Sequence record: PP988008.1
DNA length: 51,468 nucleotides
Reading direction: 5' to 3' (one strand)
Source of the DNA: Escherichia phage phiE31-2
Within the stretch, counting starts at the first letter, position 1. The number at the start of each line of letters is the position of its first letter. Shown here in pieces: positions 11,765 through 16,940 of the stretch. The position numbers and the translations under genes were made by a program. Below the pieces are notes generated by a model that had not been told where the DNA came from, did no database searches, and saw only the letters and a list, made by a program, of their open reading frames with translations.

Positions 11765-12088
11765 TTACATTGATTTCATTTTACGCAATGCGCAGATACA
11801 AGCGGCAGCAAGATCGGTTAATTCTTTCTCTATGCCATGATGCGAGCCGTCTGCCTTTTCGGTCATTAGCTCTTTGTATTCCATTTCTACAATCGACATT
11901 AAGCCGCCTGGCTTGTCAATGTGCGCGTCCCATGTCTTAGGATAGCGCTTAGTTCTTTCCATAACACTTCCCATAACTGAATCATTTTTGCTATCTCGCT
12001 CATAATCATCATCATGATCATCACTACCGATTAAAACTCGCGGCAAATGAATGCGCGGTATTTTATAGCCAGCATAACGGATCTTCAT
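11765..12088 (-). CDS. hypothetical protein
   Basis: 107 aa ORF with AGAGGG RBS; acidic HDDDYERD stretch. Confidence 0.5.
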   Translation of the reverse strand: MKIRYAGYKIPRIHLPRVLIGSDDHDDDYERDSKNDSVMGSVMERTKRYPKTWDAHIDKPGGLMSIVEMEYKELMTEKADGSHHGIEKELTDLAAACICALRKMKSM

Positions 12089-12137
12089 TATCTCGCCCTC
12101 TTGATGAAAAGCGCCCCGAAAGGCGCTTGATTTATTA

Positions 12138-12839
12138 TCAGCCGCAACAGCCAGTAGGCGGAGTCTGAGGAGTAGGCAACTTGAAGTTTACCAATTGCTC
12201 TACCTGGTTGATTTTGCAATTCAGTGCGGCGGTCTGGTTTGCCTGAGATAGAGCAAAACGCGCTTCCTGCAACTGAGCTTTCATATCGCAAATCAAAACA
12301 GCCTGAGAATCAGCAAACTGTTGACGAATCAGATCTCGCGTTGCGTTACCTTGTCGCTCAATGTTCAGGTTAGTCTCGCAGCAACATCTCTCCGCTGCAA
12401 TCTGTGCCTGATAGGAACGCTCAAGAGCATTAACATCAGCAGCATTAATCGCAGCAACTGTCTGGTTAGTACCGCTAACAATAGCGGTATTCAGTCCGGC
12501 AAAACCTTGCACCGATGCAAGCAGGCTTTGCGTATTCTGGCTGGTAATGCCGTTAAATGTTGATGCGGCGGAGCGCTCAACGGTAAGGTTTGTGGAGTTT
12601 TGGCCTTGCAGAGTTTGCAGCCCCAGGTTGTTTACGCCTGTCTGGATGTTATTAATACCATCAAGAACAGCGTTAGCACCGACAGCAACAGCAGCACCAT
12701 CACCACCATAACCACCACGACCATTAAAGCCATTACCAAACCAAGACCCAATCAGGCCACCAACAGCACCGCCAAGACCAGCCGCGCCAGCTTCGCCACC
12801 AAAACCACCACCAGTAGGGAGTAAAGTCATATCTGACAT
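12138..12839 (-). CDS. glycine-rich, cysteine-rich hypothetical protein
   Basis: 233 aa from ATG with AGAGGA RBS; N-terminal ~60 aa almost entirely Gly/Ala (GGGFGGEAGAAGLGG...), Q/N/T-rich middle, C-terminal cysteine clusters (CCC...GCCG). Confidence 0.55.
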   Translation of the reverse strand: MSDMTLLPTGGGFGGEAGAAGLGGAVGGLIGSWFGNGFNGRGGYGGDGAAVAVGANAVLDGINNIQTGVNNLGLQTLQGQNSTNLTVERSAASTFNGITSQNTQSLLASVQGFAGLNTAIVSGTNQTVAAINAADVNALERSYQAQIAAERCCCETNLNIERQGNATRDLIRQQFADSQAVLICDMKAQLQEARFALSQANQTAALNCKINQVEQLVNFKLPTPQTPPTGCCG

Positions 12840-12975
12840 AGTAAATTCCTCTTTGACGTTAAAAAAATTAAAAAAAGTTTGTAACATTTGCGTTACGACA
12901 AATAGTATGCGCCTAACTGTCAGGAATAGATATAAAGCATTTGTAAGCGATATGTCAGCAACTGGCATAAAGGCG

Positions 12976-13002
12976 AAAAAAGGCGCAGCCTGAGCCGCGC
13001 CT
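12976..13002 (-). terminator. terminator-like hairpin after fiber-like gene (leftward)
   Basis: GC-rich inverted repeat followed by T-run on minus strand. Confidence 0.45.
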
Positions 13003-13024
13003 TGTGATTAAATTTTGTTATTTT

Positions 13025-13672
13025 TTATTGATTCAATTTGGCTTTTAATTGCTCTATTTCTTCTTTCATCCGTTTCACATGATGAATTAGCGGAACAACC
13101 AAACGCTCATACATAACGCCTTCTGCAACCATGCCATTGCTTGAGGCGATTTCTGGATCATCACCTTCTTGTAATGGCCTCCAGTGAACGTATTCAGGCG
13201 CAATCTCTCCCACTTCTTCGGCGATCAGTCCATACCAACCCCAATCTTTTCTGTCATTCTCGCAAATCGACCGATACCAGACAGGACGCATGTCAAACAT
13301 TCGATCTGCATATTCATCCATAACAGTTTCAACAGATCTTTTGTATCTTTCGGAAGACGTTGAACGAAGAACGCTTGACACTGCGGCATCTGGATTGAGA
13401 TACAAGTTTGCGCCAGCGGTTGTTGTTCCAAGTCTAAAAAAGTAAACGTCCTCTTGTGCTGTTAATGGGTAAAATTTTCCGCTATGTGTTCCGCCCTCTA
13501 ATTCATTTGAAAGCTCGCTTTTCTTCATGTACGTCTTTAACTTGTTGTCAACGTCAGAGCTTGATGGCTTTGTGTTAACTTCTTGCTGCAACGTGGAAAC
13601 ATTGCCTTGCAACGTGGAAACATTGCCTTTTAAAGCAGTTATATCAGCCGGAATATTTGTTACGGTAGCCAT
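13025..13672 (-). CDS. short tail-fiber-like protein carrying a C-terminal intramolecular chaperone (peptidase S74-like) domain
   Basis: 215 aa; C-terminal SERYKRS...RPVWYR...GLIAEEVGEIAPEYV...ERLVVPLI...EEIEQLKAKL matches auto-cleaving fiber chaperone domains; N-terminal coiled-coil with duplicated GNVSTLQ. Confidence 0.7.
   Translation of the reverse strand: MATVTNIPADITALKGNVSTLQGNVSTLQQEVNTKPSSSDVDNKLKTYMKKSELSNELEGGTHSGKFYPLTAQEDVYFFRLGTTTAGANLYLNPDAAVSSVLRSTSSERYKRSVETVMDEYADRMFDMRPVWYRSICENDRKDWGWYGLIAEEVGEIAPEYVHWRPLQEGDDPEIASSNGMVAEGVMYERLVVPLIHHVKRMKEEIEQLKAKLNQ
13588..13629. repeat. perfect 21-bp tandem duplication inside fiber-like gene
   Basis: GCAACGTGGAAACATTGCCTT x2 (encodes duplicated GNVSTLQ on minus strand). 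Confidence 0.8.
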
Positions 13673-13674
13673 GA

Positions 13675-13953
13675 TTAAGCCCACTCCCTAAGTTTTTGAT
13701 CCGTCACAACGGTTCTGCTATTGAATAATTTCGCATCGTAATTATCATTAATGATGCGAGCGTTCACAAAATAACCATCATTTTTCTCTACAATTTCCTC
13801 TCCTTCTTCCGTTACAGATACAACAGTGTAAGTGTTCCCGATAACGTCGAGAAGAATTGCATCCTGAATGGATTCGTTTTCGTTCCATTCAATTTCTTCA
13901 AGAAAGGCAGAAAACTCTGCCTTGTCTGCAAATTTCAGTGTTAAATCTCTCAT
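13675..13953 (-). CDS. hypothetical protein
   Basis: 92 aa; ATG overlaps stop of tail fiber gene (TAATG). Confidence 0.5.
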   Translation of the reverse strand: MRDLTLKFADKAEFSAFLEEIEWNENESIQDAILLDVIGNTYTVVSVTEEGEEIVEKNDGYFVNARIINDNYDAKLFNSRTVVTDQKLREWA

Positions 13954-15908
13954 TATACAATTTCCCCCAATTGATGATCTGTTAATGCCTTATGCCAGAT
14001 CCTAAAGTTTCTAATGTGTCCAAACAAATGGCGCTCTCCAGTTCCTGTTTGTCCGCCAAACCTGATATTTTTATCTCCTGTTACGCCTATGTAATCGCAG
14101 TATGAATCAGACACTGCTATAGCATTGGTGACAACATGAAATTTGCCATCAGATTTTGCAATGCATCCAAAAGTGGATTTTTTTGCAAACACATCAGATG
14201 CCGCACTATTAATATATGCCCCAGCAGGCGTTGATAAACTCATGTATAATTTTCCACTTCCTCTATTTATTGCCGCAATTGCTGATTGACCAGTATTTGC
14301 AGCAGCTATATCCCAAACACGAGGGGCAGCATTTGGAGCAACATCCCAACACTTACTAACCTCAAGCAAAAAAGTAAACGGCAATTTATATAGGTTGTTT
14401 TTTGTTGGAATGCTAACAAGATCGCTAGCTCTCGTTGTTGGCATTGAAGTTATAATAAATGACGATGCTGTATTTCCAAGTTCAATTTGCGGCGTAGCCA
14501 TCGTTAACGTTGAATCAGAATAAAATGGTTCGTTGTTAATTTTATTAGTCATGTAAAATGCACAATTAACAGTGTCAACATTTTTATTGGCTGTATATGT
14601 CGCTTGATAATACATCCATTCGCCATCCTGTTCCACTTTAGCGGTTATAAGTGAAGTGTCGCCACTTACCGATGCAACCAAAGTATCAAGATCCAAATAA
14701 GAATCAGCAGAAAATGTATCTACTCCATCAATAATTGTAGACACTCGAAGCCTGCATCTTGCTTTAGCACCTTTAACCCTACAAGAAAAGGTGAAACTTT
14801 CACCTGACACCAAAGGGAATCTATCGGCTGTAACAACTCCATGAACGGTATAACCTCCAGTAGTACCAACAATACTTTCTACAGGGGTGACTGTAGCGTA
14901 GTTAAAACCACGATCATCCGTTCCGAAAGTTTTATTTAAAGAAGAATGAATAGTCCAAGAATCTGTTTTATTTGAGTTTCTTAGATAGTTAGTTCTTTGC
15001 CCTTCGATTAAAAGACCTTCTTTTTCAAAACGAGGTTCGTCAATCTCCGCAACAGTCAATACACCTGATTTGTTAATATAAGTTGCTGTTGAAGCGCGTG
15101 AAAATGTAACTACTTTATCTGTTGGCATAGTTATAACATCATTACCAACTGTTATTTTTTTGTAACCAGGCGCAAAGCCTGTAATCATCTCAAGAGAATC
15201 ATTAAACGGTATCCATACATCCGGCAGCGGTTGAAGCACATCTTTGTAAGGTTCTCCAGCTTGTTTTGCATATTCCTCCGCTTGATCGCGCGCAGTTTCA
15301 GCACCTGTCTTTGCGGTGTTAGCTGCATCGCGCGCTGATTCTGCGGCAGCCTTTGCACTTTCCGATCCAGTCTTTGCAGTGTTAGCTGCATCGCGCGCGG
15401 ATTCAGCAGCAGTCTTTGCAGAATCAGCGCCTTTCTTACTGTTTTCTGCATTTGTTGCGCTTATCTTCGCGTTATTCTCGCTAGTTTTAGCGGCATTCTG
15501 GCTTGCTGCGGCCGCAGCAGCATCGCTCTTTACGTCAGCCTGTATCTGTTGAAGTTTATCCCAATCAAATGTTTCGATGATCTCAATGAATCTGGCAAAT
15601 TCAGTTTCTTTACCCTGGTAATATCGCAGTGTTTCAGCGACATCTTGCGCCAGGCCATCAACAGTTATTGAATCATGAAGCATGATCAGATAGTTTGTCT
15701 TTGCTACAACAGCTCCGCCAGTAGTAATGGCGCGAATGCTTGTGTCGCTAATAACCTCAGTGATTACAGCGGCTTGCATTGGATTTGTTAAGAAAAATAT
15801 TGTTGCACCAGGGCGAATGAGTGTTAGCTGTTCGCGCCATTTTGTGCCGTATCCAGTTATATAACCTTGCGCGTCCATTGACGCCTGTCCGGTTCTGTAA
15901 ATTGCCAT
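13953..15908 (-). CDS. lateral tail fiber protein
   Basis: 651 aa from ATG with GGAGAAA RBS; N-terminal fiber-attachment-like region, Ala-rich repeated [15 protein letters not shown] motifs, beta-rich C-terminus. Confidence 0.75.
15290..15435. repeat. imperfect ~63-bp tandem repeats inside lateral tail fiber gene
   Basis: TCTTTGCRGTGTTAGCTGCATCGCGCGC...GATTC..GC.GCAG.CTTTGCA repeated with 63-bp period (Ala-rich protein repeats). Confidence 0.7.
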
Positions 15909-16007
15909 GCGTTTTCTCCAATGTTGCATGTTAATGTCAATGCAGATAATAGCATTTGCTAAGGCAAAAAAAAACCCCGCAATGCGGGGTAAAAGTAGCA
16001 GTGACAT

Positions 16008-16940
16008 TTAGAGAAGAGATTCAGGTTTGTAAACCTTCCTCTCTATCCCTTGCCTGTAATTATCATTAATCGGCATCATAATTTCAAGACCTCTTTCCTC
16101 TGCGGCAATGATAGCGTCACGATCTGTGCTCTTACAGACAACTCGCATTCTTCTGTTGCCTTTATACCTGTAAGCCACAATCTCAATGTTAGTTGCATCA
16201 AAGCAGGCCCAAACCTCTTGACCAGTTGCAAGATGGATGTGTTGCGCATCAATCCAGTCAACGCAAAGATAGATCGCCTTATCTGTGCTTCCTGTTCTCA
16301 CAATCGACCCGCGCGTGTAGTCCTTTGCGAGAAAAGACTTATTACCTTCTTCATCAATGAAAAGCACATTGCACATTTCATCATCAATTTCATCTGAATG
16401 TACCAGGTAACATGGGAGCGCGTGAATGTATCGACCATCTTTTACGCCGCAATCATAATGACTATCTTCAGGCGGGTATATTCCTTCATATGTGCTTAAC
16501 GGCGTGCGATCAAATTTTAGTGTTTTTGACATAACGCGCTCGCAGCATTCATGGCTTGCCTGTTTCCCAAACGAATAACCAGAATCACGAGATACTCGCT
16601 TATTTGACTTGATCCTATAGTCCTGCGGAACTTTTCCAAGAAAGCGGCCCAAAATATTGATCACTTCGCTGTAAGGTTCTCCGGTTAGCTTCATGATCCA
16701 ACCAATTCCAGTATCATTACCGCACACGTTGCAGATCGCACCGCCATCGCCTTTTTTATCGCCAAGTTTATCAGTCCACCTGAAGCGATCCTTTCCGCCG
16801 CAGTGGGGGCAAGATTGATGCTTGCCGTTAAAAACTTCATTTGGAAGACCGCAAATACTTTGTAGCGCCTCACGCCACAATCCTTGCATATATGGGAGAA
16901 CATCTTCCTTTTGATAAACCATAAAGTTTTCGTTATTCAT
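16008..16940 (-). CDS. DNA primase (zinc-binding CHC2-like plus TOPRIM-like)
   Basis: 310 aa from ATG with GAGGTG RBS; CPHCGG...C..C zinc-binding motif; acidic TOPRIM-like segment. Confidence 0.75.
   Translation of the reverse strand: MNNENFMVYQKEDVLPYMQGLWREALQSICGLPNEVFNGKHQSCPHCGGKDRFRWTDKLGDKKGDGGAICNVCGNDTGIGWIMKLTGEPYSEVINILGRFLGKVPQDYRIKSNKRVSRDSGYSFGKQASHECCERVMSKTLKFDRTPLSTYEGIYPPEDSHYDCGVKDGRYIHALPCYLVHSDEIDDEMCNVLFIDEEGNKSFLAKDYTRGSIVRTGSTDKAIYLCVDWIDAQHIHLATGQEVWACFDATNIEIVAYRYKGNRRMRVVCKSTDRDAIIAAEERGLEIMMPINDNYRQGIERKVYKPESLL

What the first reader, a model, noticed from the sequence alone, without database searches (positions are those of the whole stretch)
13025..13953. Stand-alone intramolecular-chaperone (S74-like) domain gene separated from the lateral fiber by a small ORF, with a perfect 21-bp tandem duplication
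The S74-type auto-cleaving chaperone domain usually sits at the C-terminus of a long fiber, but here it follows only ~95 residues of coiled-coil in a 215-aa protein. A 92-aa ORF lies between it and the 651-aa fiber gene. A perfect 21-bp duplication (13588-13629) in its N-terminal part suggests recent repeat expansion, recombination, or repeat-number variation. This may be a second short fiber or a remnant of fiber module exchange.
Basis: partly seen in the sequence, partly recalled or inferred. Interest (0 to 1): 0.5.

Follow-up and report, generated by a model that had tools for sequence, protein, structure and literature searches.

The report
Self-cleaving mini tail fibre gene
This is a small gene of a T1-like coliphage for a very short tail-fibre protein with a built-in folding domain that probably cuts itself off; it belongs to a conserved three-gene side-fibre cassette, is already annotated in near-identical phages, and is only moderately unusual.

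Summary
All genes lie on the minus strand of a Hanrivervirus genome 98% identical to phage KarlJaspers. The order is fibre (15908-13953, 651 aa), a 92-aa ORF (13953-13675), then a 215-aa protein (13672-13025) followed by a terminator. Residues 106-215 are a genuine S74 intramolecular-chaperone domain: it passes the Pfam cut-off, a family profile hits two solved chaperone-bearing structures, and Ser106 and Lys111 are invariant. The perfect 21-bp duplication (13587-13629) is real and encodes heptad GNVSTLQ twice. A close relative has one copy fewer. In all 30 homologues that have both anchoring motifs, the coiled-coil spacer is an exact multiple of seven residues.

It is not a recombination remnant. 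The trio of fibre C-terminal domain, ~92-aa protein and short S74 protein recurs in about 47 T1-like phages, a Seuratvirus and lambdoid E. coli prophages. dN/dS is below 1 in comparisons outside the near-identical KarlJaspers pair.

My best reading (confidence ~0.5) is a conserved accessory mini-fibre. It would self-cleave at Thr105|Ser106 and dock through its invariant N-terminus. It is probably not the specificity determinant, because the fibre's residues 301-600 are the hypervariable part. A trans-acting chaperone role is not excluded. Interest is modest.

The parts
13025..13672 (-). Gene for the 215-aa short S74 protein (mini-fibre). The stop codon is 13025-13027. The ATG at 13672 is conserved in all orthologues. 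The KarlJaspers record instead annotates the upstream GTG at 13684.
   Evidence: ORF list. It is 97% identical to KarlJaspers bas06_0035. It matches phrog_3299 at E=6e-92 and Pfam S74.
13637..13672 (-). Codons 1-12, MATVTNIPADIT: an almost invariant N-terminal motif and the proposed docking element.
   Evidence: M1, T3, T5, I7, P8, D10, I11 and T12 are invariant in 20 homologues. The same motif heads the 510-aa third gene of KurtStettler, whose downstream sequence is otherwise different.
13553..13636 (-). Codons 13-40: the heptad (coiled-coil) spacer, four heptads in this window.
   Evidence: The spacer is 21, 28, 35, 42 or 63 aa in 30 of 30 homologues that have both anchor motifs. AlphaFold predicts a helix at residues 12-33. 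There are weak matches to the P22 gp26 needle and T4 fibritin heptads.
13587..13629 (-). Perfect 21-bp tandem duplication (2.0 copies), in frame, encoding GNVSTLQ twice.
   Evidence: KarlJaspers and IMG/VR contig L009 have it too. morffagbaw has one copy. WaterSpirit has two slightly diverged copies.
13358..13552 (-). Codons 41-105: a conserved segment ahead of the cleavage site. It has a short helix and then beta strands, and would form the tip of the mature product.
   Evidence: It is conserved in the short homologues and also in longer fibres P0031, P0032, P0041 and P0042. The secondary-structure assignment comes from a low-confidence AlphaFold model.
13340..13357 (-). Codons 106-111, SSERYK: the predicted autocleavage site (Thr105|Ser106) with the Ser106/Lys111 dyad.
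   Evidence: The Pfam S74 model starts at residue 106. S106 and K111 are invariant in 29 sequences. In the profile alignment K111 pairs with a lysine in both DT57C and MYRF; at the position of S106, DT57C has serine and the MYRF chain has alanine.
13028..13357 (-). Codons 106-215: the S74 intramolecular-chaperone domain, including a C-terminal helix. After cleavage it would be released as a 13.1-kDa fragment.
13043..13046 (-). Homopolymer run one base shorter than in three relatives (A4 instead of A5 on the coding strand). The frameshift changes the last residues to KAKLNQ* instead of KSQIESIKNNNI*.
   Evidence: DNA alignment with KarlJaspers, morffagbaw and IMG/VR contig L009.
12974..13003 (-). 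Intrinsic terminator directly after the S74 gene: a 10-bp stem followed by six U.
   Evidence: RNA fold gives -18.8 kcal/mol, z = -3.6. It is conserved in relatives.
13675..13953 (-). 92-aa ORF between the fibre and S74 genes (phrog_1361). Its function is unknown. Its ATG at 13951-13953 shares base 13953 with the last base of the fibre stop codon (13953-15908 includes the stop).
13953..15908 (-). Lateral tail fibre gene, 651 aa. It has an N-terminal anchor, an Ala-rich coiled coil, and a C-terminal region with a GTA-spike-fibre-like segment and a weak LamG-like match. It has no S74 domain of its own.
   Evidence: NF048003 at E=1.7e-18, residues 300-494; Laminin_G_3 at residues 524-646, below the Pfam cut-off.
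14109..15008 (-). Fibre codons 301-600: the hypervariable, presumed receptor-binding segment, flanked by conserved blocks.
   Evidence: Identity to morffagbaw is 22-42% here but 64-100% in the other fibre bins. Nucleotide similarity is lost between 14060 and 14986.
15974..15990 (-). Terminator-like hairpin upstream of the fibre gene. It marks the start of the fibre / 92-aa / S74 transcription unit.

Best explanation
The 215-aa protein is a conserved accessory subunit of the phage's lateral tail fibre: a minimal 'mini-fibre'.

Shown:
- It has a genuine C-terminal S74 intramolecular-chaperone domain (residues 106-215), with the Ser106/Lys111 dyad intact.
- It sits in one terminator-bounded unit with the fibre gene and a 92-aa ORF.
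- This trio is conserved across several phage lineages.

Inferred from how S74 domains work in the K1F endosialidase, T5 pb1 and phi29 gp12:
- Three chains are brought together and folded by the C-terminal domain.
- The domain then cuts itself off between Thr105 and Ser106.
- This leaves a trimer of 11.3-kDa chains, each made of an invariant 12-residue N-terminus, a four-heptad coiled coil and a small beta-rich cap.

Inferred from conservation patterns:
- The invariant N-terminus docks the stub onto a conserved partner within the cassette. Candidates are the conserved parts of the fibre (residues ~200-300 or the last ~50) and the 92-aa protein.
- The protein is not the host-range determinant. 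That role belongs to the hypervariable fibre residues 301-600.

The 21-bp duplication:
- It adds exactly one heptad.
- It is the latest of many whole-heptad length changes, each of which alters rod length without breaking the coiled-coil register.
For: S74 identity:
- Pfam PF13884 is above its cut-off.
- A family profile hits the DT57C fibre chaperone region at E=6.5e-5 and MYRF at E=0.006, with Lys111 aligned to a lysine in both.
- S106 and K111 are invariant in 29 sequences.

The region upstream of the cleavage site matters in its own right:
- dN/dS for residues 1-105 is 0.17-0.45 in the informative comparisons with this window. Other pairs give 0.20-0.76, the highest from only seven differences.
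- The N-terminal motif is invariant.

The N-terminus looks like a docking module:
- KurtStettler carries the same cassette. Its fibre C-terminus is 43% identical and its 92-aa ORF is 49% identical.
- Its third gene starts with the same motif and heptads but then has about 150 extra residues before its own S74 domain (E=1e-14).
- Maffei et al. 2021 (PMC8594841) note that fibre proteins of this family are conserved only where they attach.

Related tip-plus-chaperone modules sit at the ends of real fibres:
- These include P0041, which has a tail-collar N-terminus, and P0032 and P0042.
- phrog_3299 aligns this whole protein to positions 1164-1381 of a 1385-position fibre family.

The cassette is conserved:
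- 47 phage records carry full-length matches.
- Synteny was checked in KarlJaspers, morffagbaw, WaterSpirit, SECphi27, JLBYU07 and IMG/VR L010.
- It occupies the stf-tfa slot of lambdoid prophages.
- 806 of 5426 complete E. coli genomes have a nucleotide match of 90% or more to part of the prophage cassette; in most of the rows shown the match covers only the S74 gene.

Heptad quantisation.

The fibre, not this protein, is the variable part.

Precedent for two-protein lateral fibres: PMC4728585 and PMC10713586.
Against: - No experiment or virion proteomics for this protein was found in four literature searches.
- Cleavage, trimerisation and docking are all inferred.
- The monomer AlphaFold model is poor (pLDDT 51), and no multimer prediction was possible. 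There is therefore no structural support for a stable 105-residue trimer or for any interface.
- A 105-residue mature product is very small for a fibre.
- Its sequence conservation fits an assembly factor just as well.
- The authors of the KarlJaspers record chose the name 'putative lateral tail fiber chaperone'.
- Several isolates carry nonsense or frameshift mutations in the gene. This window itself has a 3'-terminal frameshift. So the gene is dispensable, at least on laboratory hosts.
Confidence: 0.5

Rival explanations
1. It is a trans-acting assembly chaperone. The protein, alone or with the 92-aa protein, transiently helps the 651-aa fibre to trimerise or fold, since that fibre lacks its own S74 domain. 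It is not retained in the virion.
For: - The main fibre has no S74 domain, whereas the alternative single-gene fibre of the same genus (aaroes) has one fused at its end.
- The gene always travels with the fibre's C-terminal domain.
- It is conserved while the fibre's binding region is hypervariable, as expected for a general helper.
- GenBank annotators named it a chaperone.
Against: - S74 domains are described as intramolecular: they fold the segment immediately upstream in the same chain and are then released. This rests on general knowledge of the K1F endosialidase and T5 pb1. My recollection that in-trans supply fails for the endosialidase was not checked here.
- The protein has its own conserved substrate-like segment (residues 41-105), homologous to the region ahead of the cleavage site in long fibres.
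- It has an invariant N-terminus plus a coiled coil under purifying selection. A pure chaperone would not obviously need these.
- In KurtStettler the equivalent gene carries a sizeable extra domain, like a real fibre.
- There is no similarity to known tail fibre assembly families.
Confidence: 0.25
2. It is a second, independent receptor-binding fibre forming a branched lateral fibre, like LtfB of DT57C. Its small tip would recognise a second, conserved surface structure.
For: - It shares gene order and operon with the main fibre.
- It has its own chaperone domain, as LtfB does.
- The KurtStettler homologue has a larger domain ahead of the cleavage site.
- The tip segment is shared with the ends of long fibres.
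Against: - Only about 65 residues lie between the coiled coil and the cleavage site, and no binding domain was detected.
- The protein is conserved (92% identical to morffagbaw) where the main fibre's binding region has been replaced, so it does not track host range.
- No functional data exist.
Confidence: 0.15
3. It is a decaying remnant left when a long fibre with a fused chaperone was split by insertion of a foreign fibre module.
For: - The downstream recombination junction with the aaroes-type locus lies inside the last ~15 codons of this gene.
- Several isolates carry stop codons or frameshifts.
- This window has a 3' frameshift.
Against: - The same short architecture, with the same N-terminus, is kept in about 47 T1-like phages and in lambdoid prophages. 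The Seuratvirus KurtStettler keeps the N-terminus, but its third gene is 510 aa.
- dN/dS is well below 1 in both halves over deep divergence.
- The catalytic residues are invariant.
- Length changes are restricted to whole heptads, which implies selection on the coiled coil.
Confidence: 0.05

Closest known systems
C-terminal intramolecular chaperone (peptidase S74 / ICA domain) of phage fibres and spikes: K1F endosialidase, T5 pb1, phi29/GA-1 gp12, DT57C LtfA and LtfB
   Same: - The domain family is the same (Pfam PF13884; profile hit to the DT57C fibre chaperone region).
- The Ser/Lys pair is conserved, with Lys five residues after Ser.
- The domain is C-terminal and ends in a helix.
   Different: - In those proteins the domain follows hundreds to more than a thousand residues of fibre or spike.
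- Here it follows only 105 residues, with no recognisable binding or enzymatic domain.
- The protein is a separate gene product beside a fibre that has no such domain.
Two-protein branched lateral tail fibres of T5-like phages DT57C and DT571/2 (LtfA + LtfB), PMC4728585
   Same: - Two fibre genes lie adjacent in one locus.
- The second protein lacks the virion anchor and has its own N-terminus, proposed to dock on the first.
- The second protein carries a self-cleaving chaperone domain.
- The fibres are dispensable on rough laboratory strains.
- Tandem repeat copy-number change was also seen in that fibre system.
   Different: - LtfB is 767 aa with its own receptor specificity, and LtfA also carries a chaperone domain.
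- Here the second protein is tiny and conserved, the first fibre has no chaperone domain, and a conserved 92-aa gene sits between them.
- Homology of the N-terminus to LtfB or phiEco32 gp15 was not tested.
Orthologues already in GenBank: KarlJaspers bas06_0035 and PeterMerian ('putative lateral tail fiber chaperone'), SECphi27 gp79 and JK16 ('chaperone of endosialidase'), E. coli prophage 'tail fiber domain-containing protein'
   Same: - It is the same gene: 97% identical to KarlJaspers, and 58-70% identical to most of the other phage records with near-full-length matches.
- Gene order is the same.
   Different: - These are annotations only.
- No functional study was found in the searched literature.
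T4 fibritin (wac) and the P22 gp26 needle: short trimeric coiled-coil fibres
   Same: - The heptad sequences resemble each other weakly.
- The design is similar to fibritin's: a short coiled-coil rod whose trimerisation is nucleated from the C-terminus.
   Different: - The matches are below significance (E = 0.017-0.35).
- Fibritin keeps its foldon, whereas here the nucleating domain is predicted to be cleaved off.
- No homology is claimed.
Lambda Stf/Tfa side tail fibre locus
   Same: In lambdoid prophages the cassette sits after gpJ and lom, exactly where stf-tfa lies, and a tfa remnant follows it.
   Different: The 92-aa and S74 proteins show no similarity to Tfa-type assembly proteins.

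Membership tests
Peptidase S74 / intramolecular chaperone auto-processing domain (PF13884) | Match to the family model above its curated threshold | tested here: met
   24.6 bits against a cut-off of 22, E=3.1e-5, residues 106-162 against model positions 1-57 of 58. Many homologues carry precomputed PF13884 hits.
Peptidase S74 / intramolecular chaperone auto-processing domain (PF13884) | Similarity to proteins whose chaperone domain has been solved | tested here: met
   A profile of 20 homologues hits the DT57C fibre 8hqz_d (residues 951-1074 of 1076) at E=6.5e-5 and the MYRF domain 7dc3 at E=0.006. The single-sequence search was weak (E=0.14).
Peptidase S74 / intramolecular chaperone auto-processing domain (PF13884) | Cleavage-site serine with a lysine five residues downstream | tested here: met
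   Ser106 is at model position 1 and Lys111 follows. Both are invariant in 29 sequences. Lys111 aligns to a lysine in both the DT57C and MYRF alignments. That this dyad is catalytic rests on established knowledge of the K1F endosialidase and MYRF.
Peptidase S74 / intramolecular chaperone auto-processing domain (PF13884) | Located at the C-terminal end of the chain and ending in a helix | tested here: met
   The domain spans residues 106-215, and a predicted helix covers residues 192-214. The last ~11 residues are altered by a frameshift in this window.
Peptidase S74 / intramolecular chaperone auto-processing domain (PF13884) | Autoproteolytic release after trimer folding | not testable with these tools
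   This needs protein expression with S106A and K111A controls, or virion mass spectrometry.
Branched two-protein lateral tail fibre (LtfA/LtfB type) | A second fibre gene adjacent to the anchor-bearing fibre gene and co-transcribed with it | tested here: met
   The three genes lie between terminators at 15974-15990 and 12974-13003, with overlapping or near-abutting ends.
Branched two-protein lateral tail fibre (LtfA/LtfB type) | The second protein has a conserved N-terminal module distinct from the virion anchor | tested here: met
   The motif MATVTxIPxDIT is invariant and is shared with the otherwise different 510-aa KurtStettler protein. There is no similarity to the fibre's N-terminus.
Branched two-protein lateral tail fibre (LtfA/LtfB type) | The second protein carries its own receptor-binding domain that varies with host range | tested here: not met
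   No binding domain was detected in residues 1-105. The protein stays 92% identical to morffagbaw while the main fibre's residues 301-600 drop to 22-42%.
Branched two-protein lateral tail fibre (LtfA/LtfB type) | Physical attachment of the second protein to the first | not testable with these tools
   No multimer prediction was available, and the monomer model is poor.
Trans-acting tail fibre assembly proteins (lambda Tfa, Mu U, T4 gp38/gp57A types) | Sequence membership in a known assembly-protein family | tested here: not met
   Neither the 215-aa nor the 92-aa protein hits such a family in Pfam, PHROGs or NCBIfam.

The most novel reading that the evidence does not exclude
The short protein could be a stand-alone S74 chaperone that works between chains. 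Its N-terminal motif and coiled coil would dock onto the separately encoded fibre, which has no chaperone domain of its own, and its chaperone domain would nucleate that fibre's trimerisation before being cleaved off. That would make it the first S74 domain shown to act in trans, within a portable three-gene host-range cassette shared by virulent T1-like phages and lambdoid prophages.
Probability: 0.15. Interest if true: 0.6.

Novelty: new member of a known kind. Interest (0 to 1): 0.3.

Why it matters
If the mini-fibre reading is right, this is about the smallest natural substrate of an S74 chaperone: 105 residues.

- That would make it a convenient model for how these domains nucleate trimer folding and then cut themselves off.
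- It would also be a compact trimerisation and docking module for engineering phage receptor-binding proteins.

The wider point is that the unit exchanged between phages appears to be a three-gene cassette rather than a single fibre gene. It consists of a variable fibre head, a 92-aa protein and the short S74 protein, and it moves between virulent T1-like phages, Seuratviruses and lambdoid E. coli prophages.

- Anyone swapping fibre specificities between such phages may need to carry the two small genes along.

None of this overturns current understanding. Two-protein lateral fibres and S74 chaperones are both well known.

Tried and rejected
- **AlphaFold2 monomer of the 215-aa protein** with a 29-sequence alignment. 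Mean pLDDT was 51, too poor for fold search, as expected for an intertwined trimer. No multimer tool was available and both prediction jobs are used.
- **phmmer of the N-terminal 61 residues against 1.84 billion representatives**. It returned 264 hits, dominated by long proteins with many heptad-like stretches, so it could not show which other proteins begin with the docking motif.
- **IMG/VR scan.** It returned only two loci.
- **Single-sequence PDB search.** It gave only weak hits; the profile search was needed.
- **Rfam scan of 12000-16200.** Nothing was found.
- **Literature searches**. I read the two BASEL papers, the two DT57C papers, the Cronobacter fibre paper, the fibre atlas preprint and the FhuA coliphage paper. 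None characterises this short protein.
- **Phase-variation switch reading of the 21-bp repeat.** I set this aside because there are only two copies and the change is in frame.
- **Assembly artefact reading of the repeat.** Rejected because two independent records share the duplication.
Full report
**What the window is.** The region 12900-16100 is 98.1% identical over its full length to Escherichia phage KarlJaspers (Bas06; Drexlerviridae, Tempevirinae, Hanrivervirus). All genes of the finding are on the minus strand.

In transcription order they are as follows.
- A terminator-like hairpin lies at 15990-15974.
- The lateral tail fibre gene runs 15908-13953 and encodes 651 aa.
- A 92-aa ORF runs 13953-13675, and its ATG shares a base with the fibre stop.
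- The S74 gene runs 13672-13025 and encodes 215 aa.
- A strong intrinsic terminator lies at 13003-12974 (-18.8 kcal/mol).

The three genes therefore look like one transcription unit.

**Checking the observation.**
- The 21-bp duplication is real. Tandem Repeats Finder gives 13587-13629, 2.0 copies and 100% identity.
- It is the only perfect tandem duplication with a unit of 12-59 bp in the window.
- It is in frame and encodes GNVSTLQ twice.
- The S74 assignment passes the Pfam cut-off (24.6 bits against 22, residues 106-162).
- A single-sequence search of solved structures was weak.
- A profile of 20 homologues hit the chaperone region of the DT57C lateral fibre (8hqz_d, E=6.5e-5) and the MYRF auto-processing domain (7dc3, E=0.006).
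- Ser106 sits at model position 1, and Ser106 and Lys111 are invariant across 29 sequences.
- Predicted cleavage between Thr105 and Ser106 would give an 11.3-kDa N-terminal product and a 13.1-kDa released domain.

- The part before cleavage is 105 residues, of which only about residues 13-40 are heptads.
- The 215-aa length results from a one-base deletion in a homopolymer (13043-13046). It shifts the last codons relative to three relatives.

**The repeat.**
- KarlJaspers and a metagenomic contig (L009) carry the identical duplication, so it is not an assembly artefact of this genome.
- Phage morffagbaw is 92% identical in this protein and lacks exactly one unit.
- WaterSpirit has two near-identical but not perfect copies of its own version.
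- I measured the distance between the invariant N-terminal motif (...DIT) and the next conserved motif (VDNKLK) in every available homologue. It is 21, 28, 35, 42 or 63 residues in 30 of 30 cases.
- The segment therefore evolves by gain and loss of whole heptads, which keeps a coiled coil in register. The perfect 21-bp duplication is the most recent such event, or a recent homogenisation.

**Not a remnant.** A protein search of cultured phages found 47 records with near-full-length matches at 58-97% identity, nearly all T1-like coliphages. The large protein database shows the same short architecture, 221-269 aa, many times. It includes E. coli prophage clusters of 2928 and 650 member sequences.

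The gene order fibre, ~92-aa ORF, short S74 gene is kept in many places.
- Among T1-like phages it is kept in KarlJaspers, morffagbaw, WaterSpirit, SECphi27, JLBYU07 and an IMG/VR contig.
- Among lambdoid E. coli prophages it follows gpJ and lom, in the position of lambda stf-tfa.
- In those prophages the fibre has a different N-terminal anchor, but its C-terminal ~420 residues are 38-42% identical to the window's. The small ORF is 31% identical and a prophage S74 protein about 60%.
- 806 of 5426 complete E. coli genomes have a nucleotide match of 90% or more to part of the prophage cassette; in most of the rows shown the match covers only the S74 gene.
- dN/dS is below 1 in both halves wherever it could be estimated. 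For example, morffagbaw against KarlJaspers gives 0.37 for residues 1-105 and 0.07 for the chaperone domain. In deep comparisons dS is saturated while dN is only 0.16-0.34.
- The one exception is the window against KarlJaspers (ratio above 1). That pair has almost no synonymous differences, and the 3' frameshift inflates the non-synonymous count.

**Module exchange does occur at this locus.**
- Phage aaroes, of the same genus, has a single 685-aa fibre with its own fused S74 domain.
- Its nucleotide similarity to the window stops at 13069, inside the last ~15 codons of the short gene, and resumes at 15601, within the fibre's N-terminal anchor.
- The exchanged unit is therefore the whole cassette, and the short gene is an intact member of it.

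**What varies and what does not.**
- Within the cassette, fibre residues 301-600 are only 22-42% identical even to morffagbaw. The other fibre bins are 64-100% identical, and nucleotide similarity vanishes between 14060 and 14986.
- This segment overlaps a match to the 'phage head spike fiber' domain (NF048003, E=1.7e-18, residues 300-494) and a weak LamG-like match. It is the likely glycan-binding specificity determinant.
- The last ~50 fibre residues, the 92-aa ORF and the short S74 gene lie on the conserved side.
- The short protein is therefore a conserved accessory and not the host-range determinant.

**A clue from KurtStettler.**
- This Seuratvirus has the same cassette. Its fibre C-terminal region is 43% identical and its 92-aa ORF is 49% identical.
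- Its third gene is 510 aa. It begins MVTKTIIPTDITKLK followed by heptads, as the window protein does. It then has about 150 unrelated residues before its own S74 domain at 208-259 (E=1e-14).
- The only part the third-gene products share, apart from the S74 domain, is the N-terminal motif and coiled coil.
- In phage fibres, conservation confined to the N-terminus usually marks the attachment point. Maffei et al. make this point for the fibres of this family (PMC8594841).
- Relatives of the tip-plus-chaperone module also sit at the ends of real fibres with other N-termini (P0041, P0032, P0042).
- PHROGs aligns the whole protein to positions 1164-1381 of a 1385-position fibre family.

**Best explanation.** I favour a minimal accessory fibre subunit.
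- The C-terminal domain brings three chains together and folds the segment ahead of it.
- It then cuts itself off at Thr105|Ser106.
- The remaining stub docks by its N-terminus on a conserved part of the cassette.
- The cleavage and folding steps are inferred from the established behaviour of S74 domains in the K1F endosialidase, T5 pb1 and phi29 gp12. The docking step is inferred from conservation patterns.
- The closest described system is the branched LtfA/LtfB fibre of DT57C (PMC4728585; PMC10713586). There, however, the second protein is large and carries its own specificity.

**Rivals.**
- A trans-acting chaperone role cannot be excluded. The main fibre lacks an S74 domain, the short protein is conserved while the binding region varies, and annotators have named it a chaperone.
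- Against that reading, the protein keeps its own substrate-like segment and a selected N-terminal rod. S74 domains are also described as working within one chain.
- A second independent receptor-binding fibre is less likely, given the tiny and invariant tip.
- A decaying remnant is largely refuted.

**Dispensability.**
- Several isolates and contigs carry stop codons or frameshifts in this gene: JLBYU07, L009, several truncated database proteins, and five phage records whose match is split in two.
- Many of the phage records list E. coli K-12 strains as host. K-12 has no O-antigen, and the literature reports that lateral fibres are dispensable on such rough hosts.
- This fits a fibre-related accessory function but does not distinguish between the readings.

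**Novelty.**
- The gene is already annotated in near-identical and related genomes, and both S74 chaperones and two-protein lateral fibres are well known.
- Added here are three points: the short protein is part of a portable three-gene cassette, it has a conserved N-terminal module, and its rod length is quantised in heptads.
- I rate it a new member of a known kind with modest interest.

Noticed in passing
window 13043-13046 (minus-strand gene 13025-13672): The homopolymer is one base shorter than in KarlJaspers, morffagbaw and IMG/VR contig L009. The resulting frameshift makes the protein end KAKLNQ* instead of KSQIESIKNNNI*. It may be a sequencing error or a real mutation in the C-terminal helix of the chaperone domain.
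   Followed up: yes
window 12138-12839 (minus strand); L012 4501-6033: The next gene downstream (233 aa, phrog_9288) has a Gly-rich N-terminus and CCCETN and C-terminal CC motifs. KarlJaspers annotates it as 'putative sugar-binding protein'. It is 69% identical to the C-terminal 180 residues of the KurtStettler third gene, where it is fused in frame after the S74 domain. It occurs in 219 phage records of several families. Its Gly-rich stretch weakly resembles the N-terminal region of influenza HA2 chains (E~0.05, not significant). Its function is unknown, and it may be linked to the fibre locus.
   Followed up: partly
window 14109-15008 (fibre codons 301-600): This segment of the fibre is hypervariable. 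It is 22-42% identical to morffagbaw while the other fibre bins are 64-100% identical, and conserved blocks flank it. This is the pattern expected of a swapped receptor-binding domain.
   Followed up: yes
L009 493-1158; L006 2359-3054; proteins P0023-P0026, P0189, P0195, P0225: Several relatives carry in-frame stops or frameshifts in the short S74 gene. Examples are JLBYU07, a metagenomic contig, and orkinos-type split ORFs. This suggests the gene is often lost or broken, perhaps during growth on rough laboratory hosts, or that some records contain sequencing errors.
   Followed up: partly
[not shown]
   Followed up: partly
window 13600-15200: The G+C content of the cassette (0.37-0.40) is lower than that of the flanks (0.42-0.51), which fits a horizontally exchanged module.
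   Followed up: no
window 15185-15450 (fibre codons ~150-240): The Ala-rich coiled-coil part of the fibre contains an internal near-repeat ([15 protein letters not shown] appears twice). A blastn self-type match to SECphi27 at 15292-15391 hints at repeat-number variation here too.
   Followed up: no
window 15908-16007: The mechanical ORF list extends the fibre to 684 aa from an ATG at 16007. That extension runs across the terminator hairpin at 15974-15990. The start at 15908 (MAIYRTGQ...) matches the annotated orthologues.
   Followed up: partly
L011 6653-6946; L013 5216-5509; L007 2957-3244: In lambdoid prophages a fourth small gene (95-97 aa, no Pfam match for the one scanned (L011) and none on record for L007) follows the short S74 gene. 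In L011 and L013 a tail fibre assembly gene lies further downstream (a remnant in L011). This fourth gene is absent from the T1-like phages.
   Followed up: no
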